35,084 bases of DNA from Sanchytrium tribonematis. Lineage: Eukaryota. The notes under the pieces are model-generated. The model saw nothing but the letters and a program-made list of their open reading frames with translations. It made no database searches and had not been told where the DNA came from. Where the stretch lies: contig JADGIG010000039.1 of assembly GCA_018985235.1 (NCBI GenBank), positions 1 through 35,084 on the forward strand, in the 5' to 3' direction. The number at the start of each line of letters is the position of its first letter. Within the stretch, counting starts at the first letter, position 1. Made by a program: the position numbers and the translations under genes. Shown one piece after another: positions 1,685 to 34,152 of this stretch.

Positions 1685-2841
1685 ATGACATTCGAAAATA
1701 TGTTTTCACAATTGACTCAACAGGAGCAAGAGCAAGATTTCTTGCTTCCTTATGATGTTTATCTTGAATTCTATAGAGAACATAACGGGCAATCATATCG
1801 ATCCGGATGGAGTAAGATTAAGAAAAGCATCTATGTTGATGTAGAAGAGACCAAAGCTGAGGAAGTTGCAAGGTGTGATTGCATGGGCGATTCCAAATGC
1901 TCTTCGGATGAATGTATTAATCGCTGCATGTACATTGAATGTGATCCTGCTCATTGCAAAAATTGTTTAAATCAAAGGATTCGCCATTTTGAATATTTAC
2001 AACCAGAAGAATTTGATATCAAATTTCACGAAAGAAAAGGCTGGGCATTTCATACTAATGTAAAAATTGAAAAAGGTCAATATATTTACGAATACACTGG
2101 TGAAGTGATTTCAGTTCAACTATTTAAAGAGAGGCTCGAGGAAATGTCAAAATTGAAAAATTATTATTTTTTGCAAATCCAAAATAGAGTCATAGATGCT
2201 TTCAAAAGAGGAAGCGAGGCTCGTTTTGTGAATCATTCTTGTGACCCTAATTGTGAAGTTCAAGTGTGGACAGTCAACCACGAAAAAAGAATTTGTTTAT
2301 TCGCATTAAGGAATATCAAACAGGGCGAAGAAATTACTTATGACTATAATTATTCTGCAGATATATCTTATCCTTGTTTTTGTGGTGCTTCGAATTGTTC
2401 AGGAATAATGGGCAAGAAATTAGACTCAAATCGCTCTTTGCTGGAATCGGCCCAAAGACTCACCGTTTCGCAATATAATGTATAAATTTATTGATTTAGA
2501 GTAAAAAAGTCTCACCTCGATATTTAAAAAGAAATTTACGGAACGAAGATCGAAATTCATTGGACGAAAATCAAAATATTGACTTCGAGTATGATTTTGG
2601 AAACAATTCTGTACAAGATTTTATGGGCCTACGAAATTTTTCTCAATTTGTAGATAATTTACTATCTAGACGACAAACGGAACATTTTTTGGAAAAATTT
2701 GAAATTGGTAAATTTTCAGTATTCCAGGCCAACGTCAAATTGCCACCCCTAGGAGTCGAAAAGGTTCAGATCGAATTATTTGCTTCTGAAGATGATTATG
2801 AAGAGCAATTAGAATCCCGAAAAAGGTTTCGGTGTGAATAA
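1685..2841 (+). CDS. AWS-SET-postSET histone H3K36 methyltransferase (ASH1/Set2 family); exons 1685-2479 and 2500-2841, 378 aa
   Basis: Cys-rich AWS (CDC..C..C.NRCMYIEC), SET motifs EYTGEV, ARFVNHSCDPNC and EEITYDY, and post-SET CFCGASNCSG. A 20-nt intron joins the 2560-2841 ORF in frame and yields YLKRNL, resembling the ASH1L post-SET FLxRN segment. Confidence 0.88.
2480..2499 (+). other. 20-nt spliceosomal intron
   Basis: gtataaatttattgatttag; phase 0; contains the in-frame TAA; removal fuses two adjacent ORFs; A at -6. Confidence 0.75.
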
Positions 2842-2854
2842 ATTATAATTTTAA

Positions 2855-4171
2855 CTAATCAATCTCTTTGAAGGAACCAAATTTTAAATTCCACTCTAAA
2901 TGGAACTTGATGTCTTTTTCGCATACACTGGTACCAACTTCTTTAAAAGCCTCTTCGAAAGAATTTTTGCTTATTGGGGGCAAAATTGAATTTGACTGTT
3001 TAATGGAATCACCTAGTTGCCGAACGCAAATACCTGCAGCACTTCTACAAAGCTCCTTTACATCACTGCAGGAAAATTTAACGGATTTTTCTACAATGTC
3101 TTTATAATCGTCGTCAGTCAGGGAAGTAATTTCATTTCTCAATAAATCACGAATCATCTTCTCTCTAGCTTCTGGATTTGGCAAACCGACGTATATTCTT
3201 TTCGTAAATCTTCTACGTGCTGCCTCATCTAGACAGTCCGGTCGGTTAGTGGCAGCGATTACCAAAATTCTATCCTCAGAGTCACTGTTCATCCCATCTA
3301 ACTGAACAAGGAATTCAGTTTTTAGTCCGCGAGCATTGTCCTTATCATCAGAGGTCCGCGCGGAGAGCAGGCTGTCAATCTCATCAATGAATATTATGGT
3401 AGGTTGTTTTGCTTTGGCGACAGCAAATAGAGCACGGACAAGTTTTTCACTTTCCCCAATCCATTTACTCGTCATGGAGCTAGCACTGACCGAAAAAAAG
3501 GTCGAATCACATTCTGAAGCAGCTACTCTAGCCAAAAACGTTTTTCCGGTACCTGGAGGCCCAAATAGTAAAATGCCCTTTGCGGGACTTCTGATGCCAG
3601 TGAAAATATCCGGTCTTATCATTGGCAATATCACAGTTTCATTCAAAGCTTGCTTTGCAAAATGAAGCCCTGCAATGTCTTTAAAAGTTAAACCAGTGGT
3701 TGAATTAACAATCAATGAATTTACCATTTCTATAAACTTTCCACCATATTGCTGTAAAAATTCATCCTCTGGTTGATTTTCCTTGTCATTCGAGGACTTA
3801 CTACCAGCCTGTCTAAAAGAAGAAAAATCTTTGACATGTACATTATCATCGGTCGCTTTGATACTGACTTTTGAATTAGTGATTGAAGATTTTCTTTTAA
3901 GCGGGCGATCTTCAGTTTGAGATTTGACTTCGACCATACAAATTACGTCCTCATTTTCTAATTTTTCTAGATATTCGATGTCAGAATTTGAGAGTTCCCC
4001 CACTGGTCCAGTAACTAACTCTGTATCTTCGAGTAATTTTAATAAGTCTGGTTCGACATAATTTTTTCTAAACTCATTAAAAATCTCATAGTCTTTCTGA
4101 TGAACCTCCATTTTTGCAATTTTCCCGAGCACCTCTTGTATGTTATTGAGAGTGCGTCCATTATATGGCAT
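2855..4171 (-). CDS. FIGNL1: Fidgetin-like (meiotic-clade) AAA+ ATPase
   Basis: IAGLHFAK, Walker A GPPGTGKT, SKWIGESEK pore loop, Walker B IIFIDEIDS, KTEFLVQLDG, ATNRP..LDEAARRR. First in-frame ATG is at 4171 (the track starts at TTG 4198). Confidence 0.88.
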   Translation of the reverse strand: MPYNGRTLNNIQEVLGKIAKMEVHQKDYEIFNEFRKNYVEPDLLKLLEDTELVTGPVGELSNSDIEYLEKLENEDVICMVEVKSQTEDRPLKRKSSITNSKVSIKATDDNVHVKDFSSFRQAGSKSSNDKENQPEDEFLQQYGGKFIEMVNSLIVNSTTGLTFKDIAGLHFAKQALNETVILPMIRPDIFTGIRSPAKGILLFGPPGTGKTFLARVAASECDSTFFSVSASSMTSKWIGESEKLVRALFAVAKAKQPTIIFIDEIDSLLSARTSDDKDNARGLKTEFLVQLDGMNSDSEDRILVIAATNRPDCLDEAARRRFTKRIYVGLPNPEAREKMIRDLLRNEITSLTDDDYKDIVEKSVKFSCSDVKELCRSAAGICVRQLGDSIKQSNSILPPISKNSFEEAFKEVGTSVCEKDIKFHLEWNLKFGSFKEID

Positions 4172-4373
4172 TTCTGTTTCAAGGAATTTTACGGTCAAAT
4201 GAATTTCTTGTTCAGTGAAGAGTTTTTCCTGTTTTCACATATCTATAATTTTGGACAAGCAAGTGTTTCTTCTAGTAATTTAACTATCAACTTTGAAGCA
4301 GACTATGATTTAGAAGAAAAAAGCCTTAAAAAAAGCACATCAAATTTATTCTAATAAATATATAGCATCTTTA

Positions 4374-5066: not shown

Positions 5067-5094
5067 GAACAAGGAGAAATTTTCAAATAAATAT

Positions 5095-8000
5095 TTATTT
5101 TGTCGCAATTAATCTTTGAAATGATTGTTTATCTTCCGCGCTCAACGTACCAATATAGCTTTTAAAGATTTTAATATTTTCACTCTCCGTCAAATAATTA
5201 TTTATAATTCTAGCGTAATTTCTTTTTGCATCAATTTTTTTCCAGATGCTCAATAATAAAAGGAGTGACTTCTTTTTCTCAAGCGACTCTAGAAACGAAA
5301 AACATTCTTCTAAAAACAAGCCTTTGTGAATATGAGTCTTTTCGTGGAATTTTAAAATTGCGGTCACCACACTAGAAACAATCAGACGCAATGAAGATTC
5401 AACTTTGTGCTTCTGAACAACTAGCTTCAGGGCCTGGATTGAATACAATTGATTTGTTGAATTTTGTTCTAATCCTTTGATTAAATATTTGGTAATTTGG
5501 TGAATTTTATTTTCCAAAAGCGATGGGCTTGATGAACTGGATATGCACATCAATAAAAGTATGTTCCGCTCGGACACCTCTGCAAGTAATATATTTGTAA
5601 ATTTTTTATAGATCATATGGCTAAAGGAGTCTACTTCTATTTTTTCAAATAAGAATTTTAGATCAGGAAGTGCATCATTGATGGATGCATCAGATTTGAG
5701 ATTCATCAATAAAGCCATCAATATTTTTGATAACAACACATCGCTATTATCAGTTTTGGTCATAAACAATCCTGTTTGAAGTAAAATTAAGAAATTTTCT
5801 TTCGATCTATCAAGTTGCAAATTGTAGATGCATTTTTCAAATAAATCCATCAAAATAATGGGAGACACGCTAAACTTTTCAAATATTTTTAACACAGATT
5901 GCAAATAAGTGACTCTGACTGAGATAGGAATTTTGACTAAAAAATTAGTTACAAAAATATAAAAATCATTCAATACTTCATCTTCACTGAACAAAACATT
6001 GTCTTTGCCGATTTGCTCACACAATGCAGAGAGTATTGGTATTGCTCGTACAATAAAGCTCACGCTAGCATTTTGGTTCATTGAGCATATTAGCAAGCCA
6101 AATGATTGGCATAAAAACTTTTCACTTAAATTTTGCTTTACCAAAAATTCCAGTATCTTCAGCCATCTAGTTTCAAATTCCAGCTTGTTTAAATGTGGAG
6201 ATGTTAAAAACTTATTATTTTGAAAATAAATTTTGCACAGCACCTGTAAGACTTCCTCCTCACAAAGCACTCTAATTTCATTAACGTCATACTTGAATTG
6301 GAATTCTATCTTTTCATTATTTATAAAATCGTAGACCTCCAGAAAGCTAACAAAACAGGAAATTAATAGAACATTTGACACTGAAGATCGCTTTAAAGCA
6401 ATTTTGGATTGATCAAAGGCGGTTAAAAGCAATTGCATTGGCTTTTCAATGAGAATGCCATCTGGATCCTTAATACTTGTAATAAAAGTACTGGAAACCA
6501 AACAAGAACTAGCCACTAGAGCGTCTGGGGATGTTTTGCTGAACATAGGAGATAACGCGCTGGAAAATTGAGCGTGATATTGTTCAAGAATACTGTGATC
6601 TGGTAAGTCTGGATCTTGAAGCTGGGAAAAGATCTAAGTCAAATTAAAATACCAAAAGGCAATCTTGCAAAATTGTCAGTCCATAAAATTTCAATTCCAT
6701 ATTACTACTAGTTGAACAATTGAAAGAGATGCTAATCAAGTCTTGAATTTTGTTGATTAAAAACTTGGTGTCCCCTGTCTTGATGAGTTTAGTATTAAGA
6801 TGATTAGAAAAATCTTTTCTATTTTGCAAAACTTCAATCATTCTTAATAAACAAGCAGCAGAAGTTATTTGGCTATTTGAAGAAGGCAACAGACTCGTGC
6901 TAGATTTTTTTTCGGCGTGCGAAATCATTCCTTGACCCTCATCGTCTTCAACCTTCATATCAATGGTTTGCTGATCTTGGGCTTGGCGATTCAAAATGCT
7001 TTTCAAAAGGTCAAAAGTTTTTGTGAAATCTGTAAAATCTTCAACAGTAATAAGGCACATTTCTCTTATAAGGCCTAGTTCTGTCTTGTTGATAGCATCT
7101 TCGGTGGACATGATCAATTGTTGAAGAGGTAGTTTTGCATCGATATCCACGAATCCAAAGAGTAATTGTTTCAATAACTTCAAAGCCGATTTTCTAAGAT
7201 CTGTATTTTCACTCTGTTTGTAGATACTCAGCAATGACTTGCTTGTAAATGGCAACTTTGAACTAAATTTAAAGCTTATTAAAAATTCAAAAACATCAAA
7301 TGCATTTAAGCATATATTTGGGTTGTTTTTCACTATAAATGACGTGGCAAGATCAAGGACCTTTGTCTTACTATCACTCGCTATAAAATCAGCTCCTAAA
7401 TTTAATAGCAAATTTGATAAAATGCTTGACAAATTCCACTCGTAAAAATGATCGGCCTCCATACCCAGAACGTCGTTGAGAATGAAATATTCTTCAAAAT
7501 AAATATCGCTATATAAAGACAAATAAAGTTCCATATATTTTTGACCGGAGTTTAAAAACGGAGCTGCAGATACGTCTCTCAATCCCACTAATGCAGAAGC
7601 ATGAGCCAGCGGATGGGCATCTTGGATTAAAGATTTGATTACGTTATAAATTACATCAATACTTGGTTGATCTAAATATGCGCAGCTTTTAATCATCGAA
7701 GTTAGAAAAACAAATTGATAGTGACGTTTATCGACATCTGGATTTGAAATCGTTTTATCGAGTAGGTCTTTAACTATCGCACAAGCTGTTTGTTCATCTA
7801 AAGACTCTCCAAATCTACTCAAAAGTTCACTAATCAAATGAGGCACATCTGAAAATATATCTTGAGTATATTGGAACAATAATTTGTACGCATTGTTTGC
7901 ACAAACCGCATCAAGTTTGACTGAATTCCCCAGCATGCTGGAGAAGATAACAAATGCGGTTTTTCTTTTCAAAGCGCTTTTCACATCGTGGGTTTGCAAA

Positions 8001-10345
8001 AAAAGTCCACAGGTCTGGATAAATTGTCTTTGTACACTCTGATCACTTAAAGGTAAGCCTTTTTGGATAAACTTACAAAAAGCACTTATACAACGCATGT
8101 AGGGCATTGGAGATCCTATAGTGACAAAATTGTCTCTAAATGTAAGTCCTTTAAACACAGCAAAATCTAATTCGAAAAAGAATAGCTTCACATGAGTATC
8201 ACTGCTTATCCTATACAAATCAATGTATTGATTACTATTCAAATTGACGGCAGTAGCTTTTGGAAGATGATCTAAGAAGTGTAGCACAGTCCCCAAAAAG
8301 GATCCATTTGCTCTGGACTTATAGAATGAATTATGCTGCTCGACATTGAAGATATCGTATTCCAACTGAAAAACTAGTCGAGCATGCTTCTTAAATATAT
8401 TATCTAAATGTTTCACTAGTAGATTTTTACCGTTCTTGTGATGCTCACTAAGTAAAACTGTAGATTCAAATACAAGAGATCTGAACATCAGCTCACGATC
8501 ATTCAAGTTGTTCAAAACTTCCGTACGTAAAGAAACCATTGCTGTCAAGGACATTGATCCGAATAATGAGGGCAATTGCTCTGCTAATCTTAAATATTCC
8601 TCAAGCAAATCAGCTGCACTTTCCATGAATGATGGCCTATAATTTTTTTTAGATAAACACTTTCTTAAAAATCTCAGGCAACTTGTTGTTTCAGTGAAGA
8701 ATTTCAAAATCTCATTCTCTTTAATGGGAAATGCAGGAAGAATCATATGTCCTTTCATATCTTGCAAAAAGCCAACAACGTCTTGCTCAATATCAATGGC
8801 CACTTCTTGAACATCCATCAAATAGCCCAAAATTTGCCATCCACTATTTCTGACTAATTCTTGAACAAGAAGCAAATTATCATAATCTGCTCGAAAGTAT
8901 AAGCTCGATTTTACAATTTTAAGAATTATATCGAGATCTGTAGCAGTCATTTGCATGTGTTCACTCCAATAAACTAAAATGACCATCAAGGCCATGCTAT
9001 AAGCATAGTATTTTTTTAAGTAAATATCGGGGCTGACCGATTTCAACTTTGGAACGTCATCTTTTAAAAATGGATAAATCGAATTAGCCAATTTGCGAAC
9101 ATAGGACGCGTCTGCTTGCATAATTCCATATAAACAATACAATGAAGAAGTTATCAGAATGTCATCTTGATGTTCGAGATACCTAAATATGATAGTTTGC
9201 AAATTCTCAAAGGAAGTAACATTTGTACCTGCAAGTGAGATATAATTTCCAAGCTCCAGCATGCAAAAGCCCAGCACCCAAGTGTTAGGGCTAGGTTTGT
9301 TCGGTATTAAACTTGGCCATTGCTCCAAATACTCTATTAAAACATTAATTGCTGGCATGAATCCATCATCGTGAGTCAACAAAGAAGAAACATCTTTCCT
9401 CATTACAAAAGAAAGGCATGTATAAACAAAATATTGGTCGGAAAAGTACAACTTGTTAAAGGATTCACTCGAGAGCAATTTCGAAATGTGTTCTAAAACT
9501 AATCCATAACTTTGCTCCATGTATTTCTTACCTTTCATATTCAAATAGCGTCCCAAAACTTCACACAAATAAGCAACATAATCTCTTTCTAAAAATGCTA
9601 GTTCCATGTTACGAAATAAAGCTGGCAATACATCTGCCTCGGTAAATGATTCTATTTTTTTAACTTTCTTCTTCTGTTTTGTCATATCATCATCTTCATC
9701 ATTTTCCTGCGGTTGTTCCACAGTTTGCTTAGAGTAGAAATACAATAATGTACTCAATGCTTGGCTGCTTTTTTCACGGATCATATGCGATGTGACCATA
9801 TTTCTATCCAAAAAGATGTCCAGAATATTGAATATTTTATTTGCCTTGCTGACAATGGAGTGATTCTGGATGCAAAATATATAATATTGCTGAATAGCTT
9901 TTAATTTAATTTTTTTGTGCTCAAAGTGCATAAATCCTCGAAGTAATCGATAAAGAGTCAAGGTATTATTTTGGTCAACCTCGAGGTATTGCATACAATC
10001 CATGCTAAGCAGATGATATAAAATGGTATTAGATTTGTAATTTTTAATAAGTTTATAATAAATACCACTAAATTGAGATTGGGCTTGATAAGATGCATTT
10101 GCCAAGATGGAATCCAATATATCTAAAATAAGACAGATTGTAGAGTTGGTAATATCCTTAGATTCCAACATACCAATAAGTGTAGTAGATGTGTTCATCA
10201 GCATCTTTTGATCGGTTAGCAGCATCAAAAATAATTTTGGCAAAGTTAAGCGAGCATCAATATTATTGTATTTGTTTTGCTGGATATTCATTATGTGTTG
10301 GCTGATGATCAATTGAGGATCGCCTTTTGGGTCTAACAATTCCAT
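5095..10345 (-). CDS. HEATR5: HEAT-repeat AP-1 accessory protein HEATR5/Laa1; exons 10345-6653 and 6633-5095, 1743 aa
   Basis: Long all-helical HEAT-type protein. The spliced junction restores LIQDLISISF...GLTILQDCLL|IFSQLQDPDLPDHSILEQYHAQFSSALSPMF, matching the HEATR5/Laa1 PGHxILEQYQA-type motif. Confidence 0.85.
6634..6652 (-). other. 19-nt spliceosomal intron
   Basis: gtattttaatttgacttag on the minus strand; phase 0; joins the 1233-aa and 483-aa ORFs through a conserved segment. Confidence 0.9.
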
Positions 10346-11563: not shown

Positions 11564-12998
11564 TTATTCTCTGCTGATATCTCTACCGAACAACCTGTGC
11601 TTCAGCCAGTCAAAGCTCACTAAAACTTGATTTCTAAATGAAAACAGTGTCGTCAAATAAACAGAATTCCAAACTGCAGTTGCTAGTAATCCATCCAATG
11701 AATAATTTCCAAACGAAAAATTGAAATCACCGATGGACTTTTCGCCACCAATGTATGCCAACCCACCCAGATGACGATAAGCAAATGGCCTTAGTCTTGG
11801 TTCCCTGCCCAACATTTCTGAATTTCCGATTTCATTAAAGACTTTGGATAAGTATTTTCCTTGCTGAAACGCAACCTGAGCTGTACTAGATAAGCAATAT
11901 GTACGGTGGATTCTTTGTGAACGTACAATCTCCAAGTGCGAAAATATCATCAAAGCCTTTTACTCTTAGAAAATCATCAACTTGAAGCCCACGCCTGGAG
12001 GTTTGTTCTTGTGGCTGTAAGTCCATCAGATTCTTAATAAGAGGCCTGGCAGTATTACCCGTGGCCCAAATCAAAATACCATATGGAATTACAACTTCTT
12101 TGTTTGTCAGTTTGTCCAAGGCTACTACAGCTTTTTGTTGCACCTCCTTCACTTGCGTGTTATTTAAAATGTCAATATTTGAGTCTTTAAATGATTTTTC
12201 AGTATATTCTACAAGTGTTTTGGAGAATGATGGCAGAAGAGCAGGGAGTGCTTCTATAAGTGTGATCTTGAACTTTCTTTCATCACCTGGAAACCATAAA
12301 CTGATATCTTCATTTAAAAAATCATACAACTCCCCTGCAAACTCCACGCCTGTGGGACCACCACCAACCACAACTGCACTCAATAATCTTTGCTTCTCAT
12401 TATCATCGACTTGCATTTCAGCAGTCTCTAGACAATCCTGAATTTTTCTTCGAATTTTACGAGCGTCTTCGACTTCTTTGAGAAAAAGACCATGATCTTT
12501 AACACCAGGTATTCCAAACGTAGCATTGTCTGCACCAACCCCTACAACCAAATAATCAAATGGTATTGTTTTCTCAAATACATCGCCTCTCACTTCGGAA
12601 TTATCTACAATAGTGACTGACTTTGCAACTGGGTCGATGTTTGTACAGTCTGCTTCTAAAAATTCAACTCCGAATGGTTTTTGACGCAACAAATATCGAA
12701 TTGGCATCATGATTGATCTGGATTCAATCCCTCCAGTAGTCAAGCTGGGTAATAGTGGAGAAAATAGAAAATAATTTCTTGGGCTCACTACTGTCACTCG
12801 ATATTCTTGGGACCATAGGTTCTTCAAAAGGCTGGTACAACCCCAGCCAGTCCCTAAAATAACAAGCCTTTTCTTATTCTCTAGATTTGCTTCTACAGGT
12901 TTGGGAGGATAGTGAAATTCATAGTATGATCTTCCAATATTGTATGTTAGCAGACCACCAGGCAAGTAAACAAACAAATATCGAAATTTAAACTTCAT
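11564..12998 (-). CDS. Type-II (alternative) mitochondrial NADH dehydrogenase, Nde1/Ndi1 family; exons 12998-11905 and 11885-11564, 471 aa
   Basis: LVILGTGWG, SPRNYFLFSPLLPS and VVGGGPTGVEFAGE. Splicing restores ALGDC...PPTAQVAFQQG. The C-terminus reads YRHLGGLAYIG...DWLKHRLFGRDISRE. Confidence 0.95.
11886..11904 (-). other. 19-nt spliceosomal intron
   Basis: gtacatattgcttatctag; phase 2 (CC|T); removal gives N-P-P-T-A-Q-V-A, the NDH-2 quinone-site motif. Confidence 0.93.
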
Positions 12999-18091: not shown

Positions 18092-20800
18092 TTAATATCG
18101 TTTTTTCTTTTTACGTATTTGGATTCCGTCCGACTTCTGAGCTTCAAATTCAATTGAAAAAGGATTTTGGTTCTTCTCTTCTTTTCTTAAATTGAACGTA
18201 AACTCAAATGGCTCCACAAAATGATTTTTCACGCTGAAAAACTGAGGGCCAAGCTCAGCAAGCCATAGCGGATCTACAGAGGTGACTGTTTGCATATATT
18301 CCTTTGACGTGTATAACAATTCGTGATAAACAATATAGTCTGGTAAGGCTCCCATTGAAGATAATGAAGAGGTGGGGTGAAGGAAGCAAGAAACACCACT
18401 TCTTGCATTCATATATTCATTCAAGGATTTCATTCGCGCAGTGTGGTGAAAATACGCAGAGCATATGGATTTTCTAACTAAGTCTAGGTTAGAACCACAA
18501 CTTGTGATTGTAATGTTAGCTTTTTTAATTAATTCGACCAACTGAAAATTAATTTCCTTAGCTTTGCGGATCGGTTTCGGGTGCAAAAAATGCTTCAAAC
18601 ACCACGAATCGCGTTGGCCGTTTTTCAGAAATTGCGAATAAATGTTTAAAAGGGTAAGGTGATCGCTCTCAGGAACATAGAACTTTTCTCTGCTAGAATC
18701 GGCTTCTTCTGCCCTTTCCTTTGGTCGATAAAATACATGAGGCACTGACAACATGCTCACAATGACGAGCACTTCCTCTAAACATCCGAGTTGGATGCCC
18801 ATTACCACCATTTTGGCTAAACTTGGCTCTAAAGGAAACTCGACCATCAAGCGACCTATTTCAGTGAGATTTTGTTTATCATCTATGGCACCCAAAAGCC
18901 AAAGTTGATGCAGCGAGTTTCTGATAGAGTCCATTGAAGGAGAATCCATAAAATCAAATTTGAAAATATCATCTATGTTGAGAGATTTGAGCAATAAAAT
19001 GACATTAGCAAGGTTTGTCCTCTGAATCTCGGGAATAGTATTCGACAGAAGCTCTTTCTCGAATTGTATTTCAGTATATAATCTGTAGCAAAATCCGTTA
19101 GTGGTTCTTCCCGCCCTACCACTTCTTTGATTTGCGTTGGCTTGAGAAATTGGTGTAACTTGAAGCGTGTCGATTCCCAATCTTGGGTTGAAAACTTTTA
19201 ATTTGCAAAATCCCGAGTCTACAGTATATTTGATTCCGTCAATTGTTAAACTTGTTTCCGCGATGTTTGTTGCTACTATTACCTTGCGATTCTTTGATTT
19301 CATAAAAATTTTTGCCTGCATATCTGCTGGCAATTGGGAATAAATAGGCAAAATGTCAAGTTCAGGGGTATCTTCCATTCGTAAAAGACGCTCTTTCATA
19401 GCAAAACATGCAGCTTCGATGTCTTCTTGTCCGGTTAAAAATAAAAGTATATCACCAGGTCCCATTGTCAAATGAATGGTCAATGCTTGTTTAACAGCGC
19501 TTTCAACATAATCCTGAGTTGGTGTTTTACTATACATAATTTCGACCGGAAATGTCCTGCCGGGTATGTTATAGATTGGACTATGCGAAAAAAATTGGGA
19601 AAACTGCCCCGCATTCATAGTTGCGCTGGTTACAATTAGTTTAAAATCTAGCCTTCTTCCACTCAATCGCTTAAGAACTCCCATTAACACGTCAGTATTA
19701 AGATTTCTCTCGTGAGCTTCGTCTAGAATAATGACAGAATATTGATCTACATCGGAGTCTTTCAAGCATTCTCTCAAAAGGATACCGTCTGTCATAAATT
19801 TTATCTTTGTCTTGGAACTTGTTTGATCTTCAAATCTAATAGAATAACCAACCTCTTCTCCTAGAGCTACTCCCATCTCATCAGATACTCGCTTTGCAAC
19901 ACTAAGAGCGGCCACTCTTCGAGGTTGCGTAACTCCGATCATTCCATGTCGAGCGAACCCCACTTCATACAGATATTGGGCTAATTGTGTGGTTTTACCG
20001 CTACCAGTTTCTCCAACAATAACTAGAATCTGGTTTTCACGAATCAATTGCATCAGCTCTCTCCTGACAGCAAAAATAGGTAAATATTTCCTCTGCTGTT
20101 GAATACTTTTTTTAAGAGCAAATTCACTGGTAGCCATGTTTTGATTTTCCATTAGTTCTAAAAACTTTTTTTCTTCTTTGACAACCTCAAAAGTGCTTTT
20201 TTGACCTGATATCTTTCCCATCATTGTTCCATCTAAATTGTGCGACGACAATTTTGATACTTCTTGTTCTTCCCTTTTTCTTGAAACTAATTTAGAACCT
20301 TTTCTAGCAAGAACACTCATATCCGATTTAGGGTCCTTTACAACGCTGATCATATCCATTTCTTTAATTGTTGAGTTCTTAAGAAATTCCGGAACGTCAT
20401 CATGTACAATGAGATGATGTTTCTCACCTTCATCTTCTAGTTCATCTTTTCGTTTTCTTACACCACTGGTAGCAAGCCTATTTTGTTCCCATTTATCCTG
20501 TTCTTGCTCGTAAAACTTTTGTCTTTGCGTTTTTCTAGTACGCTCGTAATCGCTGTATGGATGCTGCTGTACATCAAAAGCGTCTTCACCATACCATTCT
20601 CGTTCTAGCAACAAGTCTTCAATTGGATCCTCTGTATTTTCGTCTTCAACGCTAAATTCACCATAAGTCTTTAAACTTAGTTCATTGTAGATGTTCTCAC
20701 CGTTCAAACCAAAGCTGCTCACGTACTCAACAAACTTTTCTTTATTTGATAATAAGCTCAAAGCATATTGCTCATTTTTGATTTGTTTGAGCGAATCCAT
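18092..20800 (-). CDS. PRP16: Pre-mRNA splicing DEAH helicase Prp16/DHX38
   Basis: GETGSGKTTQ, DEAHER, SAT and QRSGRAGRT. Prp16-type N-terminal features EREWY, PVKDP-like VVKDPKSDM and QQRKYLPIFAVR. First ATG is at 20800. Confidence 0.93.
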   Translation of the reverse strand: MDSLKQIKNEQYALSLLSNKEKFVEYVSSFGLNGENIYNELSLKTYGEFSVEDENTEDPIEDLLLEREWYGEDAFDVQQHPYSDYERTRKTQRQKFYEQEQDKWEQNRLATSGVRKRKDELEDEGEKHHLIVHDDVPEFLKNSTIKEMDMISVVKDPKSDMSVLARKGSKLVSRKREEQEVSKLSSHNLDGTMMGKISGQKSTFEVVKEEKKFLELMENQNMATSEFALKKSIQQQRKYLPIFAVRRELMQLIRENQILVIVGETGSGKTTQLAQYLYEVGFARHGMIGVTQPRRVAALSVAKRVSDEMGVALGEEVGYSIRFEDQTSSKTKIKFMTDGILLRECLKDSDVDQYSVIILDEAHERNLNTDVLMGVLKRLSGRRLDFKLIVTSATMNAGQFSQFFSHSPIYNIPGRTFPVEIMYSKTPTQDYVESAVKQALTIHLTMGPGDILLFLTGQEDIEAACFAMKERLLRMEDTPELDILPIYSQLPADMQAKIFMKSKNRKVIVATNIAETSLTIDGIKYTVDSGFCKLKVFNPRLGIDTLQVTPISQANANQRSGRAGRTTNGFCYRLYTEIQFEKELLSNTIPEIQRTNLANVILLLKSLNIDDIFKFDFMDSPSMDSIRNSLHQLWLLGAIDDKQNLTEIGRLMVEFPLEPSLAKMVVMGIQLGCLEEVLVIVSMLSVPHVFYRPKERAEEADSSREKFYVPESDHLTLLNIYSQFLKNGQRDSWCLKHFLHPKPIRKAKEINFQLVELIKKANITITSCGSNLDLVRKSICSAYFHHTARMKSLNEYMNARSGVSCFLHPTSSLSSMGALPDYIVYHELLYTSKEYMQTVTSVDPLWLAELGPQFFSVKNHFVEPFEFTFNLRKEEKNQNPFSIEFEAQKSDGIQIRKKKKRY

Positions 20801-21412: not shown

Positions 21413-21546
21413 AATTTTTGTACGTAAAGTGGAACTTTTTTGTTATATTTAAGCTGGGTCTCGTACTTTCGCATTTCTAATGTTATTTCTTCGACAAGCT
21501 TCATGCCTCGACTGCAATTCAAAACATTGACTATTTCATCCTCCAT
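21400..21546 (-). CDS. Candidate 48-aa microprotein, absent from the ORF track
   Basis: ATG at 21546 is open to TAA at 21400-21402 (MEDEIVNVLNCSRGMKLVEEITLEMRKYETQLKYNKKVPLYVQKFYSS). It fills an otherwise anomalous 165-bp gap and has ACTCCTTT about 20 nt upstream. Confidence 0.45.
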   Translation of the reverse strand: MEDEIVNVLNCSRGMKLVEEITLEMRKYETQLKYNKKVPLYVQKFYSS

Positions 21547-21577
21547 CAAATTTATAAAAACAAATAAAGGAGTAAAA

Positions 21578-22525
21578 TTAAGGTGTCAAAAACTTCAAGC
21601 CTTCTAAATAATCAGCAAAAGACTTACAGAGCCCATTGCCATTCATATAGAGTCTACCGTCATCCAACCTAAAGCTTACCGTTGATATGAATTGTGTTTT
21701 CAATATTGATGTATCGTTACCTCTTCTAAAAGCCCTCGACCAAGTGTTTTTTTCTAAAATCAGGTTGCAATTTGATCCATCTAGATCAAGATCACCATAC
21801 TTTTCTAAGAGTTTAAAAAAATCAGAGAAATTTTGGTTTTGGGTAGAAAAAACTTTGTCATATTGTTGCTTCTGTGTAATTCTCCATATTAATACCCATC
21901 TGACAGTAACGTAGGATATTTTATGGACTGTGATTTCAGGTTCTAACCCAAAAAGATGACACAAATATTTAATATAGTTTTTCAACAATGGAACTGACTT
22001 TTTAAACCCTAGTAAAGTCGAGAAATATCGGACCGATTTGGACAAAAGTAAATTTTTGATAAAACTTTTAGCAAATTCTACCTCCCCACCATCGGTCACT
22101 AATTCGTGAGGCATACCACCAAAATTCAACTTGACGCGAGTAGCCTTAATACCACCGCATTTCGAAATTTCCAATTCGGAGGAATAAAACGGTGGATTGC
22201 ACATCACAAAGTCAATCTTATCAATCAAATCCAAAGGTATTTCATCAGAGCACCTGATATCAATGTTATTATAATCAAGCTGTTGCAGTACTCTAGTGGC
22301 ATTTTTGTAGCTAATTTCATTCTTTTCTATCCCCATCAAGGGTAGTTTTGGATGATTTATGCGCAACAATATTAAGTAGATTGCGATGCTCCCTGTGCCA
22401 ATGTCTAAGACACTTTTAGGCTTATATTGACACACTAGGTCTACATAGTCCTTCCGATTTTTTACTGCTGGCTTCAGAAATCCCTCCGGCACTTGAGACA
22501 AAGCCCATTCGATAGTTTTTGACAT
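21578..22525 (-). CDS. METTL16: METTL16/RlmF-family RNA m6A methyltransferase (U6 snRNA m6A)
   Basis: LDIGTGSIAIY, DFVMCNPPFY, ELVTDGGEVEF, FSTLLGFK.S and TVRWVLIW. The start is ATG 22525 or alternatively ATG 22597. Confidence 0.9.
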   Translation of the reverse strand: MSKTIEWALSQVPEGFLKPAVKNRKDYVDLVCQYKPKSVLDIGTGSIAIYLILLRINHPKLPLMGIEKNEISYKNATRVLQQLDYNNIDIRCSDEIPLDLIDKIDFVMCNPPFYSSELEISKCGGIKATRVKLNFGGMPHELVTDGGEVEFAKSFIKNLLLSKSVRYFSTLLGFKKSVPLLKNYIKYLCHLFGLEPEITVHKISYVTVRWVLIWRITQKQQYDKVFSTQNQNFSDFFKLLEKYGDLDLDGSNCNLILEKNTWSRAFRRGNDTSILKTQFISTVSFRLDDGRLYMNGNGLCKSFADYLEGLKFLTP

Positions 22526-22556: not shown

Positions 22557-25500
22557 ATGTCGCAGTTCGTGCTTGATGATAATATTGAAGCTGCCATTGT
22601 GTTTAGAGCACAGGCGCACTTAAACAAACCTTATCCAAATTATGAACATTATTATCTTTTGCATCATATATTCAACATCACTGAAGATGACAATCATGAC
22701 AAGTTGATTGATCTAGTACTAGGCGGAACTTGTCCATTTTACATGTTCAAAAATATCTCAATTAACCTTATTAACGCAATTCAATCTAAGCCCTGCAAAT
22801 GCCTGCTTGCATTGTATTGTTCATTTGCAAATTTACCAATTAAATCATTGAAATGTCAGCAATTAGCAGTCCAACACTTTGATGACCTTATGCAATACCT
22901 TTTGAAGCAGCAGTTGCTTCCTGCTGAGTTAAAATTGTTTTTGGCTAGTTGTTTAGAATTTCAATTAGTTCCAAAACCATACATCATGACGCTCAGCAAA
23001 CATATCCAATACTCTTTACCCTCGGACACTATGCAATCTTCTCCAAGCTTATTAAATGTTTTGCTGACTGGTAGCTCAAGTTCTAGCTTTAAAATTGATC
23101 TGAAGCCCACAAATATTTCAAAGTATTTACAAGACAATCAATATAGCATGAAAAGTGTTGGGATTTTATTGCAAAAATATGTATCTAATCCTTTAGATTA
23201 TCAATTTGATGCGATCAAAAGAGAAGTGCTGGCGGGAAAGTATGTAACAGTTGACTTGCAGGACATTATATCCGGGATAGATGTGGAAGCTGGTCAGACT
23301 AATAGCAGCGAGGCTGGAAATGTATTGGATATCATTCTAGAACTATCTCACAAGCTTTCCTCTGCTTTTCCGTTACCTGGATTCGTCAACAAACAATGGA
23401 AGCATGCCAAGACTCAAGCAATTTATGTTTTACTTCTTTGTGTTAAGGAAATTGAACTGAGCGGAATCAAAAAAATTACTGACTTAAGTTGCAAAGATCT
23501 TTCAAAAATTTCGAAGCGAGATGATGACAATAGAGTTTATATTGGCCTTCATTATTTTCCTATTTTTGAAAATTGTATGATACTGGGCACCAACTTTTTC
23601 CCTGAAATGCTTGAAGACATGATCAAAAATTACACCGATATGTTTTTGCTTGGAAGTATTCAGTTTAATGAGGGCTACAACCTGTTTAGTGCATTGGTAC
23701 CACAATATTTGCAGCACCCTTTGCTTCCAACTCTTCTTGCGGATAAACTAAGTCATAATTTTATAAATACTTGGTTGATGGAAATCTATCAGCAATCTCC
23801 AACGCATTTAAAACGAACGCTTCAGGCGGTCTTTTTGGAGAGTCCTACCAATGTGAATCAACTTGTAGCTATTTCTCAGCCACCTTTACAATATGATTTA
23901 GTTTGCTGGTTTATTGATCAAGTGGATCTTTGGTTAAAAGAACAAATCTTTTCAAAAAAGGATGAAGCAATGAAACCTTTAATTGACTTGATTCAAAGTA
24001 AAACTGCTGGATTTGTTAACAGAAATATGTCTGAAGTTGAAATAATCAACAAATTAGGTCCTAGTGCTGTGGTTCCACTAACTGTCGCAAACGTTAGAGC
24101 TATTAAGAATGTATTAGGTGGTTATAAAGGATTTGAACTGTCTCCAAGTACTCAAAAATTTGTTTTAGAAGTGATGGATAAATTGAGCAATTTGCAGTCG
24201 GCACTTCAGCCATCACCAGTCACGGCAGAAATCGAAAGTGAGGCAAGAGCATTGTTTAGTCGATTATTTAGAGATAAATATCCACCAGAGCAATTGGTGA
24301 CTTATTTACTCGGCACTACTAGCTCTCCTAATGGAAATCAACTTCTACTTAAAGTCGTTCACCTTCTTTTACAGGAACAATCATATTTTCATCAATATCC
24401 AAGACAGGAATTGGAAATTTCCAGTGAATTTTTAGGACATTTAATCGCTAAAAATGCAGTGCAAGGCTCATTATATTCCGAAGCGACTAAACTTTTAGTG
24501 ACATGTCTGGCTCAACCTACAAATACAAATTTGTTTATTTTTGCACATCGTGTGGTGTTGCTCGGTATCCATGTGTTACAAAAAGATGTCGAATTTATCA
24601 AAATTATCAGCAGCATTCCGAATATCACCCAAAATGCACCTGACATCTTTTCATTTATATTACAACCTTCATATCAACAGCCGCCACCGTACGATAAATC
24701 TTCGAAGAGTCAGTCAAAAGGGCTTGATGCAATTAGATTATTTCCCGCCCTGGTCTCAGACAAGAAGAAAGAAGTCGAAAATGTCGCACCGCCTGAACAA
24801 CTGCAAGACAAAATTTTGTTTGTCATTAACAATTTATCTCCTTCCAATATTGAAATCAAAACGAAAGAAATTTTAAAGTTGATTAATGCACCAACTACAC
24901 TAAGATGGTTAAGTCATTATGTTGTCAGCAAAAGGGCAGTACTTGAACCCAATTTTCATGACGTTTACTTGTCTTTTTTAGTAAGGCTTTGTGGCTTATT
25001 GGACTTGCAAACTTTGAATGTCAACGAGAATCTTCTTGATACATACATAAAAGAGCATTGCAACAGAGGTTATTATCATTCTCACATGTTATGGAAATTC
25101 GTACTTTACGAGTCATTTGAAATATGTAAAAAATTACTAGAGACAGAAAATGCCGAGTCTCGTGAAAAAGGTTTTATTAAAAGCATTGGTGCATGGATTG
25201 GTTTGCTTACCATTGCGAAAGACAAACCATTGATTCACATTCACTTGAATTTGAAAAAATTACTGCTTGAATCACTAGAGAAGAGCAAAATTCAAAATGT
25301 AATACCTTTCACTTGTAAATTGTTGGAACAATCAAAATTTAGCCAAATTTTCAAACTCCCAAACCCATTTATTCAATTCCATTTAAAATTTTTGAAAGAA
25401 TTATATGAATTTGCAGATATGAAGCAAGGGCTAAAGTTAGACATTGAAATTTTATTTAAAAACTTAAATCTCGAGATGACTGAATTTGAGCCTACCTTCT

Positions 25501-28287
25501 TACTACCAGGAAGATATCGGGTTTTAAAGCCAGATGAGTACAATGACCAAATATCGAATGCGCTAAACGATTTACAGTTAAGTGAGCACTCTTTAAATAT
25601 GAGTTCAAACGAGCATCTCGAATCAACTATTCCTCCGAATTTCGAGCATTCTGATCACTATCAGAACGGAACTTTACAAAAACTCTTGTTTTTTGCAATT
25701 GATAAAAGTGTAAAAGAAATTCTTGCTCCAGTTGTTGAACGAAGTGTAACTATAGCTAGTATTTCCACTCGTGAACTAATCAGCAAGGACTTTCGGAAAG
25801 AAAAAGATCTACAAAAAGTTCATCGCGCTGCCCAATTAATGGTCACATCTCTTGCTGGCTCTCTTAGTATGGTAACTTGCAAAGAACCCTTAAGACTCAG
25901 CATTATGACGAACCTAAAAACTTTAGTGGTTCAACAAGGCATTCATCAGTTAAATGAAAACGAAATGATACAATTGATTGATGAGCAAATTGATCGAGTT
26001 TGCGTATATATTGAGCAACAGGCTAAAGAAAAGGCGGTTTTAGCCATTGATATAAATTCCATAAAACAAGCAATCGAAGAAAATCAGAGGCATAATTTTG
26101 AAAGTGGGAACAAAAGTGACTATATCATCAATCAATTACCAGCTCAATTACGCTCCAATACGGGGGTTTCTTCGCAACAATTTAAAATTTACGAATCTTT
26201 TGGAACTGACGAACTTTTACCTCCAACACCTGCCAGTCCAATTAACAATGCCAGTGAATTTTTAATTACTGTCACTCAGGATATTTGTAAAGGAATGGTA
26301 AGCGGTGTAACAGGTTTAGAATACCAAAATCAATATCGCCAAATCAAATCAATTCTGGCAGAAAATACTCAGCAAGACCAGATTTTACTACGATATTTAG
26401 AGTATCTTCTAAAATTATTATATTCTCACAAGGAGGACGTCGTCGTAACATTCTTATGTGGTGTCTTGAAAGAAGTGTGTGATTTGAGCAAAGCTGTGAT
26501 AAAAGAATTCACAAGTTGGTTCTACATGAGTGAAAACAAGTTGAAATTCCAAATTCAACCAGTGATGGCATTAATGGCTTGTGGATTAGTCAGTATTTCT
26601 GATGTTGATGTGCAGCTATATTATTTATTGGATGATGATTTTTTTATTCAATTTGCTAAAGATTTTATTAAAGAACTTTTGCACCAAGAAGAAGACGTAT
26701 TATTATTGGAATTGAACCAGACAATTAAGAAGCTGGGTATATTCAATGAAAAGGAACTATTAGCTCACACTATCCCCGAGCATCCGTTGGACTCAGAATT
26801 AGTTAGTGCGTATTATGCAGGTATATTTGCAAAGTGGTCAAGATTGACTCAGATAACCACATGGAATAAGGACATATCTAATCTTTTTGTTCATCGAACT
26901 TTGGATGTTCTAGAATCTGACGAAAAGCTGATACATTTTATAAGAATTGCTTTAGAAATGAGTATTGACAATTACGACAAGGTCAAATTGACCCTGATCG
27001 ATTTTTGCAGCATTGATGCGCTGTCAATATTCATAATTGAAGTTTTAGCCGTTAAAAAGTTGAGAAGTCAACACGTGAGTATGTTTGGTAAAATTATTGC
27101 CTGTATTAGCATGGTACTAATTCATTATCACGAAAGGTCCAAAATGAAATTTAATCAAAAGGGCTTTACCAGATTATTTTGCAATTTAATATCTGGAGTG
27201 CATGAAAATTCGGCTTTACATAGTGACTTTTCCAATTCAATGGCCATTTTGGCTGAAACTTTCCACACTATTCAACCACAAGTTGTTCCTGGATTCGCAT
27301 TTGGCTGGCTTTGCTTAATTAGTCACCGAAAATTTATCCCATCTATGTTGGGTTCAAAATCTTCTTGGGAAAACTATCAAAAATTGATTATTGATTTGCT
27401 GTATTTTTTGCTACCATTTTTGCGTGATCCCAAAATGAATGAAGCTGTGCGTCTTATTTATAAGGGAACTCTTCGTCTATTGCTAGTTCTATTGCATGAT
27501 TATCCAGAGTTTCTATGTTGTTACTATTACAACTTTTGCGAAGTAATTCCTTCGATTTGCATCCAATTGAAAAATTTGCTATTGAGTTGCTTTCCGCGCG
27601 ATTTGAGACTTCCTGGTAGTTTATATTTATTTAGATCCATTTACTCCAGGTTTGAATATTGAAGACCTGCCCGAAATTCAAATTCAGCCAGAAGTGAAAT
27701 GTCAATATGAGCAAATTTTGAATCAGTACAATTTAAAAGACTCTTTGGAAACCTATTTGAGGACTAAATCGCCTTTGAATTTTATCGCCGATGTAATCAC
27801 AAAAGCAACCTTAACAGACAAAGTTGATTTGGTGTCGGAATCTAATTATGATACTAGACTTTTAAACTCGATTATTTTTGCATTGGGCGTTAGTTATTCA
27901 AATATGCAAATCAAAGGCGATTTACAATCGTCTTCCCACTTTGAATTTATAAAGACTATTCTGGTCAATTTAGATAGCCAAGGGCGATACTTGGTCATTT
28001 CATTTATGGCTAATCACTTGAGATATCCCAACGCGCATTCATTTTTCTTCAATCGATTACTACTTACTTGTTTTGAAGATTCTTCAGTTAATCATGTTAT
28101 TCGTGAGCAAATAACCAGAGTGTTGCTTGAGAGACTTATTGCAAATAGACCCCACCCGTGGTGCCTTTTGACGACATTTGTGGAACTGATTAAAAATCCA
28201 AAGTACAATTTTTGGTCACATTCTTTCACTCGTTGTGCTCCCGATATTGAGAGATTATTTGAGAGTGTAGCAAGAAGCATTTCTTAA
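22557..28287 (+). CDS. NOT1: CCR4-NOT scaffold subunit Not1; exons 22557-27615 and 27635-28287, 1903 aa
   Basis: KILFVINNLS, SKRAVLEPNFH, PVVERSVTIA, TCKEPLR, PGFAFGWL and LLVLLHDYPEFL. Splicing restores RLPDPFTP. The C-terminus has ANHLRYPNAHS and LERLIANRPHPW. Confidence 0.96.
27616..27634 (+). other. 19-nt spliceosomal intron
   Basis: gtagtttatatttatttag; phase 1 (G|AT); removal gives the conserved Not1 LRLPDPFTPGL..E.LPEI. Confidence 0.94.
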
Positions 28288-32157: not shown

Positions 32158-32745
32158 ATGAAATTAGTTTGGGGATTTACAGGTTCTGTTGCTTCTATCA
32201 AATATGAAGAGATCCAACAAATATGTAAGAATGACCAGGTTATTGTTATAATATCAAAATCAGCCAAATTTTTCATCCCCAACCTACAGCCAACCACAAA
32301 TGTTGAAGTTGTGTTGGAGAAATTGCGAAGCGATCAGCCTTTTTGGATTATTGTTGATGAAGAAGCCGAATGGCAATGGAAAAAGAAAACTGATCCTGTT
32401 TTGCATATAGAGCTTAGAAAGTGGATGGAAGCAATAGTGATCGCCCCACTCTCTGCTAATTCTCTTGCAAAGTTGTCAAATGGGATTTGTGACTCGCTAC
32501 TTCTTTGCGTAGCCAGAGCTATTGATTTTGAACAAGCAAAAATGGTTGTATGTCCATGTATGAATACTCAGATGTATTTACATCCTATTACCACGACTCA
32601 AATTGAACTTTTGAAAAGTTGGGGCTGCAACTTAATCTATCCAGAAGAAAGAGAACTAGCCTGTGGTGATGTGGGGGTAGGTGCTATTCCACCCATCAAA
32701 GTCTTGTACGAATCAATCTCAAATCTAGTATTAAACATTAATTGA
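32158..32745 (+). CDS. PPCDC: Phosphopantothenoylcysteine decarboxylase (HFCD flavoprotein)
   Basis: GFTGSVA, PVLHIELRKW, APLSANSLAKLSNGICD, PCMNTQMY.HP and LACGDVGVG. First ATG is at 32158. Confidence 0.95.
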   Translation: MKLVWGFTGSVASIKYEEIQQICKNDQVIVIISKSAKFFIPNLQPTTNVEVVLEKLRSDQPFWIIVDEEAEWQWKKKTDPVLHIELRKWMEAIVIAPLSANSLAKLSNGICDSLLLCVARAIDFEQAKMVVCPCMNTQMYLHPITTTQIELLKSWGCNLIYPEERELACGDVGVGAIPPIKVLYESISNLVLNIN

Positions 32746-32777
32746 CTTACTCGTAATTACAAGCTGCATTTATTATA

Positions 32778-34152
32778 TTAAGTCCCAAAATATCGATTCG
32801 AGAAATTTCCCATCCCCGGTTGTAGTTCATAATTCTCATCAATATCTCGATCTATCCAGGAAGTCACGATCTTGACCTTAGGAAACGCTCTGCAAATCGA
32901 GTGTAGACCTTGGGGAGCAGATATGTATGATATAAAAACAATTTTATCCTCTGATACATTGTGATCCAACAGTACGCGAATGGCCATAATTCCAGCAGCT
33001 CCTGACGCGATTCCAGCATCTAGTAAAAAGACATTATAATTTTCTAAATGTGAAGGAAATTTCCTATAATGTAGCTAAATTAAAATAGTCTACCTTTGGT
33101 TCGCCTGTGTTTGGATCTGTTTGGATTAAGATTCGTCCAAGTGGCGCGTCCTTTACTACTTGACGAAGTCCACTTTCTAAAGCGCTACCTCCTCTAATGA
33201 CACATATGCCACAAATAAAATCTTTCAAACTCTTGCCGAAGCCAGAGGTAGATGCTTCAATCATTATATTGTCAATTGGAACAAGATTCATTGCAAACTC
33301 AACTAGCATTGTAGACAACCTTTCTATATGAAACACAAATGAAGTTCTAGATGTGTTTTTGTCTCTTATAATTGTTTGAATGCATTTTAGTTGGTTTGTT
33401 TGAGTCAATAAAACCACTTGCTTTGGCAGCTCTGCAGGCAAGTCTTTCCTATTGAGTGTAGATCTAAACAGAATACCTCTTTCATTTAACTGCCTGTTGA
33501 TGTGTTTCGTGATTAAATCTATGGCTACGACATTGTCTTTTCCGCGAGGACTAATAATGTCAGCAAATTTCATTGAAGGTTGAACATATTGCATAAACAT
33601 TGGCTTGACAAATCTGCGGTACTGTGTAAGCACTCCGATTGTATCCCTGCCTCTTTCAACGATATCTCTTTTCAATCTTCTGGCCAAACAGACATCCGCG
33701 TCTGTATCAACAAATAATTTTAAATCCATTAAACTTCTAATTTTTGCATCATATAAGGCGAAAATCCCCTCAAATATTATAACGTTTACACCATAAATTG
33801 TAGTTGTTTTGGAAGTCCTATTGTGCTGCGAAAAATCATAATTTGGAATTTCGACACATTTTCCCAGTTTAAGCTCTTTTAATTTTTCATAAGCCATATC
33901 AAGATCTAATGCGTCTGGATGATCAAAGTTATAATTATTTCCGTAGGCTGCCTTAATTTGTTCAGCGTTCAAAGGCCTGTAAAATGAATCCAGGCAAATA
34001 ATTGCAACTTGAGGTCCCAATTGTGATATTATACGGTGACTAACTGTCGTCTTACCACTTGCCGAAGCACCGCCGATTCCAATTATGTATGTTTCGATAT
34101 TTTCACCAGTGTTGGAATACCAAGGAAGTCTTCCAGCATCATTCCTTTCCAT
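32778..34152 (-). CDS. URK1: Uridine kinase fused to a UPRT-like domain (Urk1/UCKL1); exons 34152-33094 and 33074-32778, 451 aa
   Basis: IGIGGASASGKTT, NFDHPDA and RRLKRDIVERGRD. Splicing restores TGEPK|LHY.KFP...LLD...ASGAAGIMAIRVLLDH. Ends PGMGNFSNRYFGT. Confidence 0.95.
33075..33093 (-). other. 19-nt spliceosomal intron
   Basis: gtagactattttaatttag; phase 0 (AAG|CTA); restores the UCKL1-type GEP.LHY motif and joins the 69-aa ORF. Confidence 0.93.

What the first reader, a model, noticed from the sequence alone, without database searches (positions are those of the whole stretch)
2480..33093. Uniform ultra-short (19-20 nt) spliceosomal introns in a fungus-like genome
Seen in sequence: five split-ORF pairs are joined by GT-AG introns. 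They are 2480-2499(+) gtataaatttattgatttag (20 nt), 6634-6652(-) gtattttaatttgacttag, 11886-11904(-) gtacatattgcttatctag, 27616-27634(+) gtagtttatatttatttag and 33075-33093(-) gtagactattttaatttag (all 19 nt). Removing the 19-nt introns restores family motifs at the junction (Not1 RLPDPFTP, NDH-2 PPTAQVA, Urk1 GEPKLHY, HEATR5 into DPDLPDHSILEQY). Established knowledge: introns this small are known from chlorarachniophyte nucleomorphs (about 18-21 nt) and heterotrich ciliates (15-16 nt), while typical fungal introns are much longer. Inference: this lineage may have independently evolved a length-measuring minimal-intron splicing system. Standard gene finders would mis-annotate these genes as split or frameshifted.
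Basis: partly seen in the sequence, partly recalled or inferred. Interest (0 to 1): 0.92.

Follow-up and report, generated by a model that had tools for sequence, protein, structure and literature searches.

The report
19-base introns in a sanchytrid fungus
Five genes in this DNA from a sanchytrid, an alga-parasitising fungus, are each broken by a 19-20-base insert that is very likely a spliceosomal intron (no RNA seen yet); these would be shorter than any fungal intron found in the papers searched, and public protein predictions cut these genes short.

Summary
All five GT-AG segments are at the stated coordinates (19, 19, 19, 19, 20 nt). For four, homologues fix the exact 19-nt cut; the SET cut is less sure. 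A single-gene tree places the window with Amoeboradix gromovi (Sanchytriomycota, 100/100). New here: all five introns read GTA...YTNAY-N-TAG with an A exactly 6 nt from the 3' end, the branch geometry reported for Stentor's 15-16-nt introns. Three relatives' Urk1 proteins stop at the same site, and their tails imply introns of 19 and 22 nt with the same A. Three of the five sites appear to carry introns in unrelated eukaryotes too (47 and 54 nt read directly at the Urk1 site), so these look like old introns that shrank. Best reading: ordinary U2 splicing near its size limit, with fixed branch-to-AG spacing; a new length-measuring system is not shown. No RNA run was listed, so splicing itself is inferred. 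Tiny introns are known in ciliates, Mikrocytos, nucleomorphs and myxozoans; ten paper searches found no report for sanchytrids. This scan earlier noted short introns in Rozella (25-32 nt) and Neolecta (30-45 nt), none in sanchytrids.

The parts
2480..2499 (+). 20-nt GT-AG intron (phase 0) in a SET-domain gene; likely branch A at 2494
   Evidence: relatives P0242 and P0243 end at about this column; other frame-restoring cuts of 35, 110 and 113-134 nt exist
6634..6652 (-). 19-nt intron (phase 0) in HEATR5/Laa1; likely branch A at 6639
   Evidence: A. gromovi orthologue P0362 is unbroken and aligns without a gap across the join
11886..11904 (-). 19-nt intron (phase 2) in type II NADH dehydrogenase; likely branch A at 11891
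   Evidence: exact register with yeast Ndi1 (4g9k)
27616..27634 (+). 19-nt intron (phase 1) in Not1; likely branch A at 27629
33075..33093 (-). 19-nt intron (phase 0) in uridine kinase/UPRTase (Urk1); likely branch A at 33080
1685..2479 (+). SET gene exon 1 (AWS + SET domains)
2500..2841 (+). SET gene exon 2 (113 codons, no family match)
   Evidence: coding-like codon use in the spliced frame, also before its first Met; no homologue found
6653..10345 (-). HEATR5 exon 1
5095..6633 (-). HEATR5 exon 2
11905..12998 (-). NDH-2 exon 1
11564..11885 (-). NDH-2 exon 2
22557..27615 (+). Not1 exon 1
27635..28287 (+). Not1 exon 2
33094..34152 (-). Urk1 exon 1
32778..33074 (-). Urk1 exon 2
18092..20800 (-). 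Unbroken Prp16 gene (spliceosomal helicase): this genome encodes at least this spliceosome part
   Evidence: E 3e-300 to human PRP16 over residues 78-860, no insertion in the window's protein

Best explanation
The five inserts are very likely U2-type spliceosomal introns of a sanchytrid fungus, probably shrunk from ancestral introns to near the smallest size the spliceosome can handle, and predicted to be cut by branching at an A fixed six bases before the 3' end. Shown: the inserts, their GTA start and YTNAY-N-TAG end, the frame restoration, the lineage. Inferred: the donor is read from little more than GTA; U2 would pair with the U-rich seven bases at -11 to -5 and bulge the A at -6; the acceptor is then the first TAG, four bases on, with no room for a polypyrimidine tract; the lariat loop would be 14-15 nt. 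A 19-nt intron is roughly a 6-nt donor region, a 2-nt hinge, a 7-nt branch helix and 4 nt to the end (my inference), so deletion pressure in a compact genome pushing against this floor would explain the narrow 19-22 nt range without a separate ruler.
For: Exact register: Urk1 join matches 102 of 116 homologues' P-x-L-[HYF] pattern; HEATR5 aligns without a gap to 17 of 24 homologues spanning the join with the 19-nt cut and to 0 of 24 with the 31-nt alternative; Not1 gives RLPDPFTP, found as MRLPDPFTP in 70 of 119 hits; NDH-2 matches Ndi1 residue for residue. Independent assemblies: 3 of 3 close Urk1 relatives end at the same site; back-translation allows only 22 nt for P0122 and only 19 nt for P0123, both with A forced at -6. 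Branch motif: A at -6 and T at -8 in 5 of 5; shuffles give an invariant T-N-A in 0.15% and YTNAY in 0.0015% of 200,000 trials (pattern chosen after seeing the data). Ancestral sites: L014 and L015 carry 47- and 54-nt GT-AG introns at the Urk1 site; P0021 has a 26-residue insert at the Not1 site; P0373, P0378, P0390 leave homology with a Val at the HEATR5 site. Spliceosome: Prp16 in the window; Prp8, Brr2 and a U2AF subunit annotated in A. gromovi. Genome is 94% coding, gaps mostly under 100 nt.
Against: No RNA evidence; splicing, efficiency and the branch site are untested. Only five introns were read as DNA; relatives' introns are inferred from protein tails. The SET cut rests on the consensus, codon use and two of three relatives' end points; P0244 ends about 18 columns earlier with no Val-led tail. 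One coding stretch (21781-21800, minus strand) also fits the consensus, so the motif alone is not sufficient. A. gromovi lacks the HEATR5 intron. No snRNA gene lies in the window and no whole genome was held. Placement rests on one gene tree.
Confidence: 0.8

Rival explanations
1. A dedicated ruler: a modified spliceosome counts about 19 nt from the donor and cuts there.
For: Four of five introns are exactly 19 nt; donors are only GTA; an in-frame AG 12 nt further on in HEATR5 is not the one homology supports.
Against: Inferred lengths of 19, 22 and probably 21 nt in relatives, 20 nt in SET; the A stays at -6 while its distance from the donor changes from 14 to 17; the branch motif is enough to place the acceptor.
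Confidence: 0.12
2. Real introns, but spliced so poorly (as reported for microsporidian short introns) that they act mainly as expression brakes through truncated or decayed transcripts.
For: Short E. cuniculi introns are spliced at under 20% (PMC6349667, passage); Mikrocytos 16- and 17-nt introns at 63% and 37% (PMC10245619 section 7).
Against: The breaks cut off conserved C-terminal domains of housekeeping genes such as Not1 and NDH-2, which needs useful amounts of spliced product (inference). This rival is compatible with the best explanation and differs only in degree.
Confidence: 0.2
3. Assembly or amplification errors, or decaying genes, that look like introns by chance.
For: No raw reads could be laid on the window; published sanchytrid genomes come from whole-genome amplification (PMC8371127 section 6).
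Against: Errors would not give 19-nt GTA...TAG inserts in exact register four times (8 such 19-mers in 70,130), nor recur at the same codon in three other assemblies with different sequence, nor sit at intron sites of other eukaryotes.
Confidence: 0.02
4. No splicing: the ribosome frameshifts or hops over the insert, or the two halves are made as separate proteins.
For: Four inserts are 3n+1 long and some have no in-frame stop, so a +1 shift could restore the frame.
Against: A shift would leave six extra residues inside conserved motifs that show no gap in homologues; SET and the A. gromovi Urk1 insert have an in-frame stop right after the first codon; the second halves have their first Met 24-90 codons in, past conserved sequence; splice and branch signals would be unexplained.
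Confidence: 0.03

Closest known systems
Heterotrich ciliate (Stentor coeruleus) 15-16-nt introns (PMC9505925, passages)
   Same: GTA start, AG end, U-rich body, putative branch A at position 10 of 15 or 11 of 16, that is -6 from the 3' end, as here.
   Different: Here 19-22 nt, so a 14-17-nt loop instead of about 10; a clearer YTNAY branch motif; low density (5 in 33 kb of coding DNA); a fungus, not a ciliate; no transcript support here.
Chlorarachniophyte nucleomorph introns, 18-21 nt (PMC10245619 section 7)
   Same: Almost the same size range; compact genome.
   Different: Relict algal nucleus with over 800 introns in about 300 genes; here an autonomous fungal nucleus with about 0.15 introns per kb.
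Mikrocytos mackini 16-17-nt introns (PMC10245619 section 7)
   Same: Parasite, few, tiny and uniform introns, RNA-confirmed there.
   Different: Rhizarian; shorter; none found in metabolic enzyme genes, whereas here NDH-2 and uridine kinase carry one.
Myxobolid and Dicyema ultra-short introns, median 22-27 nt (PMC13644364, parts 1-2 of 3)
   Same: Opisthokont parasites, donor reduced to GTa, ancestral positions kept.
   Different: There the weakly conserved A residues move away from the AG as introns lengthen; here the A stays at -6; here shorter.
Microsporidian short introns (about 25 nt, from a 76-nt intron called about three times longer; PMC6349667, passage)
   Same: Nearest relatives with miniature introns; compact parasite genomes.
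   Different: Longer; many 5'-biased in ribosomal protein genes; separate lineage, since sanchytrids are sister to Blastocladiomycota (PMC8371127).

Membership tests
U2-type spliceosomal intron | GT...AG termini | tested here: met
   5 of 5, all GTA...TAG
U2-type spliceosomal intron | Removal restores a conserved reading frame in exact register | tested here: met
   4 of 5 by homologues; SET frame restored but register not testable
U2-type spliceosomal intron | Branch-point adenosine in a U2-pairing context near the 3' end | tested here: met
   YTNAY with A at -6 in 5 of 5; a sequence pattern, not a mapped lariat
U2-type spliceosomal intron | Removed from the mRNA | not testable with these tools
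   no RNA run was listed
U2-type spliceosomal intron | Host encodes a major spliceosome (U1, U2, U4-U6 snRNAs and proteins) | tested here: inconclusive
   Prp16 in window; Prp8, Brr2, U2AF subunit in A. gromovi annotation; no snRNA in the window; no genome held
U12-type (minor) intron | Long conserved donor RTATCCTT and branch TCCTTAAC (recalled consensus) | tested here: not met
   none of the five has either (sequences)
Tiny-intron genomes (heterotrich, Mikrocytos, nucleomorph type) | Nearly all introns of the genome fall in one narrow size class | tested here: inconclusive
   5 of 5 in the window are 19-20 nt, relatives' inferred 19-22 nt; no genome-wide count possible
Sanchytriomycota (host lineage) | Groups with Amoeboradix, sister to Blastocladiomycota | tested here: met
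   Urk1 tree 100/100 for the group, 91/84 for sister position; A. gromovi is the closest named hit for Urk1, SET and HEATR5; GC 35% as in published sanchytrids; single gene only

The most novel reading that the evidence does not exclude
Sanchytrids as a phylum have converged on the Stentor solution: genome-wide introns with a mode of 19 nt and a branch A locked six bases from the end, the shortest introns of any fungus and shorter than the shortest animal medians (22 nt), unnoticed because their genomes were annotated with an intron-blind method, so that a sizeable share of their predicted proteins (5 of 22 genes in this window) is truncated.
Probability: 0.6. Interest if true: 0.82.

Novelty: new member of a known kind. 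Interest (0 to 1): 0.7.

Why it matters
It adds a fungal, independent origin of sub-22-nt introns, and the same branch-to-end spacing as in Stentor suggests a shared physical limit of the spliceosome rather than lineage quirks. Sanchytrids are sister to Blastocladiomycota and several sites are ancestral, so shrinkage can be traced site by site. In practice, the published sanchytrid proteomes were made with TransDecoder on DNA contigs (PMC8371127) and A. gromovi Urk1 and SET entries end at these sites, so domain-loss and orphan-gene counts for this phylum may need a re-check.

Tried and rejected
No whole genome was held. The one search for sequencing runs listed no RNA holder; this is no evidence either way. 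A scan of JGI metagenome contigs with the sanchytrid Urk1 alignment gave 16 loci, none closer than 59% in its best segment, so no relative's intron was read as DNA. Rfam: no match in the window. ESM Atlas on SET exon 2: low recognition, bacterial hits at 0.90, treated as noise. Extra intron candidates rejected: 8015-8035 (21 nt, in frame) aligns to A. gromovi as coding; 21781-21800 fits the consensus but its removal shortens the protein; 2650-2669 and 2708-2727 shorten SET exon 2; 31678-31696 has a GTT start and lies in the open Pmc1 frame. Alternative cuts rejected by homology: Not1 16 nt (adds a residue), HEATR5 31 nt. Prp16 shows no hidden in-frame insert; the other unsplit genes were screened by motif only. 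A 2022 Current Biology paper on aphelid genomes (recalled) is not held. PMC10815200 and PMC8476143 passages gave no minimum fungal intron length.
Full report
OBSERVATION. Each lies at the break between two reading frames of one gene. Cutting them gives stop-free proteins of 378 (SET), 1743 (HEATR5), 471 (NDH-2), 1903 (Not1) and 451 (Urk1) residues. Of 22 genes that I delimited, covering 94% of the window, these five are the only split ones I found. Only 8 of 70,130 19-mers on both strands read GTA...TAG, four of them these introns.

EXACT BOUNDS. I listed every GT-AG cut up to 150 nt that restores each frame and used homologues to choose. Urk1: the 19-nt cut gives GEPK-LHY, and 102 of 116 more distant hits match the pattern P-x-L-[HYF]. 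HEATR5: of 30 homologues, 24 span the join; 17 align with no gap after the 19-nt cut, none after the 31-nt alternative; the A. gromovi orthologue is one unbroken frame, 76% identical over 92 residues across the join. Not1: 70 of 119 hits hold MRLPDPFTP, 10 a variant, 39 none (many start later or differ), which excludes the 16-nt alternative that adds a residue. NDH-2: exon 1 aligns to yeast Ndi1 (4g9k) up to residue 345 and exon 2 resumes with Thr350, with exactly four residues between in the spliced protein. SET: no homologue crosses the join. Exon 2 has coding-like codon use in the spliced frame (score 0.15, and 0.14 before its first Met, against 0.13 for exon 1 and negative values in other frames), so it is probably translated from upstream, but cuts of 35 nt or over 100 nt also restore the frame.

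LINEAGE. The three closest Urk1 hits are 74-78% identical, the next 57% or less. One of the three is EukProt's Amoeboradix gromovi, which is also the closest named hit for SET and HEATR5. A tree of 37 Urk1 sequences that I chose from the 120 listed, trimmed at the junction, groups the window with A. gromovi and two unnamed ENA proteins at 100/100, sister to Blastocladiomycota at 91/84, as in the phylogenomic paper (PMC8371127, section 6). The window is therefore a sanchytrid other than that A. gromovi proteome; the species was not determined.

RELATIVES SHARE THE INTRONS. All three close Urk1 hits are 358-359 residues long against about 465 for other fungi, and all leave homology at the same codon with a Val, as expected from reading into GT. 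Enumerating back-translations, the tail of P0122 fits only a 22-nt intron and that of P0123 only a 19-nt intron followed by L-H-[YF]; the same test returns 19 for the window's own entry. A. gromovi has a stop right after the Val, so its length is unknown. For SET, P0242 and P0243 (A. gromovi) end at about the same column with Val-led tails; P0242 fits a 21-nt intron if its stop is the acceptor TAG; P0243 fits the motif at 20 nt (also 16, or 24 and more, where nothing constrains it); P0244 ends earlier and gives no support. A. gromovi and P0363 lack the HEATR5 intron. These lengths are inferred from proteins; no relative's DNA was obtained.

Aligned at the 3' end, all five introns have A at -6, T at -8 and pyrimidines at -9 and -5. 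In 200,000 shuffles of the intron interiors, some invariant A column arose in 1.7%, T-N-A in 0.15% and YTNAY in 0.0015%; the pattern was chosen after the fact. The independent check is the relatives: A at -6 is forced in every allowed back-translation of P0122 and P0123, and A at -6 with T at -8 in P0242. The consensus GTA...YTNAY-N-TAG of 19-22 nt occurs 6 times in the window against a mean of 0.86 in 200 simulated sequences (circular, since it was built from five of them); the sixth lies inside an open methyltransferase frame and is probably not used. YTNAY resembles a degenerate form of the fungal branch consensus (recalled). In Stentor the putative branch A is at position 10 of 15 or 11 of 16, also -6 (PMC9505925, passages).

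OLD SITES. Two metagenome loci whose best matches are rotifer UCKL1 proteins (L014, L015) carry GT-AG introns of 47 and 54 nt at exactly the Urk1 site. P0021 has a 26-residue insert between RLP and DPFTP starting with Gly, as the window's unspliced frame does. Three HEATR5 fragments (P0373, P0378, P0390) leave homology with a Val at the HEATR5 site. The last two are inferred from proteins. So at least three of five sites look ancestral: shrinkage, not recent insertion. NDH-2 and SET sites were not tested for this.

MECHANISM. Shown: termini, motif, register, conservation, an unbroken Prp16 gene. Taken from the A. gromovi annotation table: Prp8, Brr2, cactin and a U2AF subunit (no row named MSL5, SLU7, PRP18 or HSH155, but the file is cut and gene names vary, so this says nothing about loss). 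Inferred: intron definition by a normal U2 spliceosome, donor reduced to GTA, U2 pairing at -11 to -5, acceptor set by the fixed branch-to-AG spacing, a loop of 14-17 nt. The narrow range would follow from deletion bias against a functional floor, the model discussed for Mikrocytos (PMC10245619 section 7). A dedicated ruler is not needed and is weakened by the 19-22 nt spread. None of the five is a multiple of three, but in-frame introns are harder to see, so I draw nothing from that.

NOVELTY. Introns this small are known: ciliates 15-16, Mikrocytos 16-17, nucleomorphs 18-21, myxobolids median 22-27; among fungal relatives the microsporidian ones are about 25 nt. Searches for sanchytrid, Sanchytriomycota, Amoeboradix or Sanchytrium with intron or genome and for tiny or short introns showed no report of sanchytrid nuclear introns; most hits were seen as listings only. 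In PMC8371127 and PMC10459994 the word intron occurs only in the reference lists, and the genome paper predicted proteins with TransDecoder on contigs. Nine of its supplementary files were searched; one is an unreadable scan and one was cut, and subscription journals are not held, so an earlier mention cannot be excluded. Earlier notes of this scan describe 25-32-nt introns in Rozella and 30-45-nt introns in Neolecta, unchecked by me, and none in sanchytrids.

VERDICT. Observation confirmed; very likely real tiny U2 introns shared across sanchytrids; a new lineage for a known phenomenon, with a branch geometry matching Stentor's. The missing piece is RNA.

Noticed in passing
window 1544-1563 (-): A 20-nt GTC...TAG stretch with A at -6 and T at -8 ends right before the ATG of the unassigned 450-aa ORF (191-1543) and would add a short in-frame 5' exon; a weak sixth candidate (no pyrimidines at -9 and -5).
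   Followed up: partly
window 191-1543 (-), 34247-34570 (-), 34608-34958 (-), 17498-18085 (+): ORFs with no Pfam match at E 0.001.
   Followed up: no
window 15535-17469 (+): A 644-aa protein with only the C-terminal NopRA1 domain of Urb1/Npa1; much shorter than typical members (recalled), possibly a reduced form.
   Followed up: no
window 22557-22597: The predicted starts of the divergent Not1 and METTL16-like genes overlap by about 41 nt; HEATR5 to Rieske and other gaps are under 30 nt.
   Followed up: no
window about 21400-21550 (-): A 48-codon ORF fills the gap between the Psf2 and METTL16-like genes; possibly a small unannotated gene.
   Followed up: no
P0362, P0363 versus window 6634-6652: The HEATR5 intron is absent from A. 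gromovi and one ENA relative, so intron loss appears to be ongoing among sanchytrids.
   Followed up: partly
L001 54-1385, L002 137-1444, L003 89-1621: Unbroken UCKL1-like frames in very AT-rich contigs (23-26% GC), of unknown lineage.
   Followed up: no
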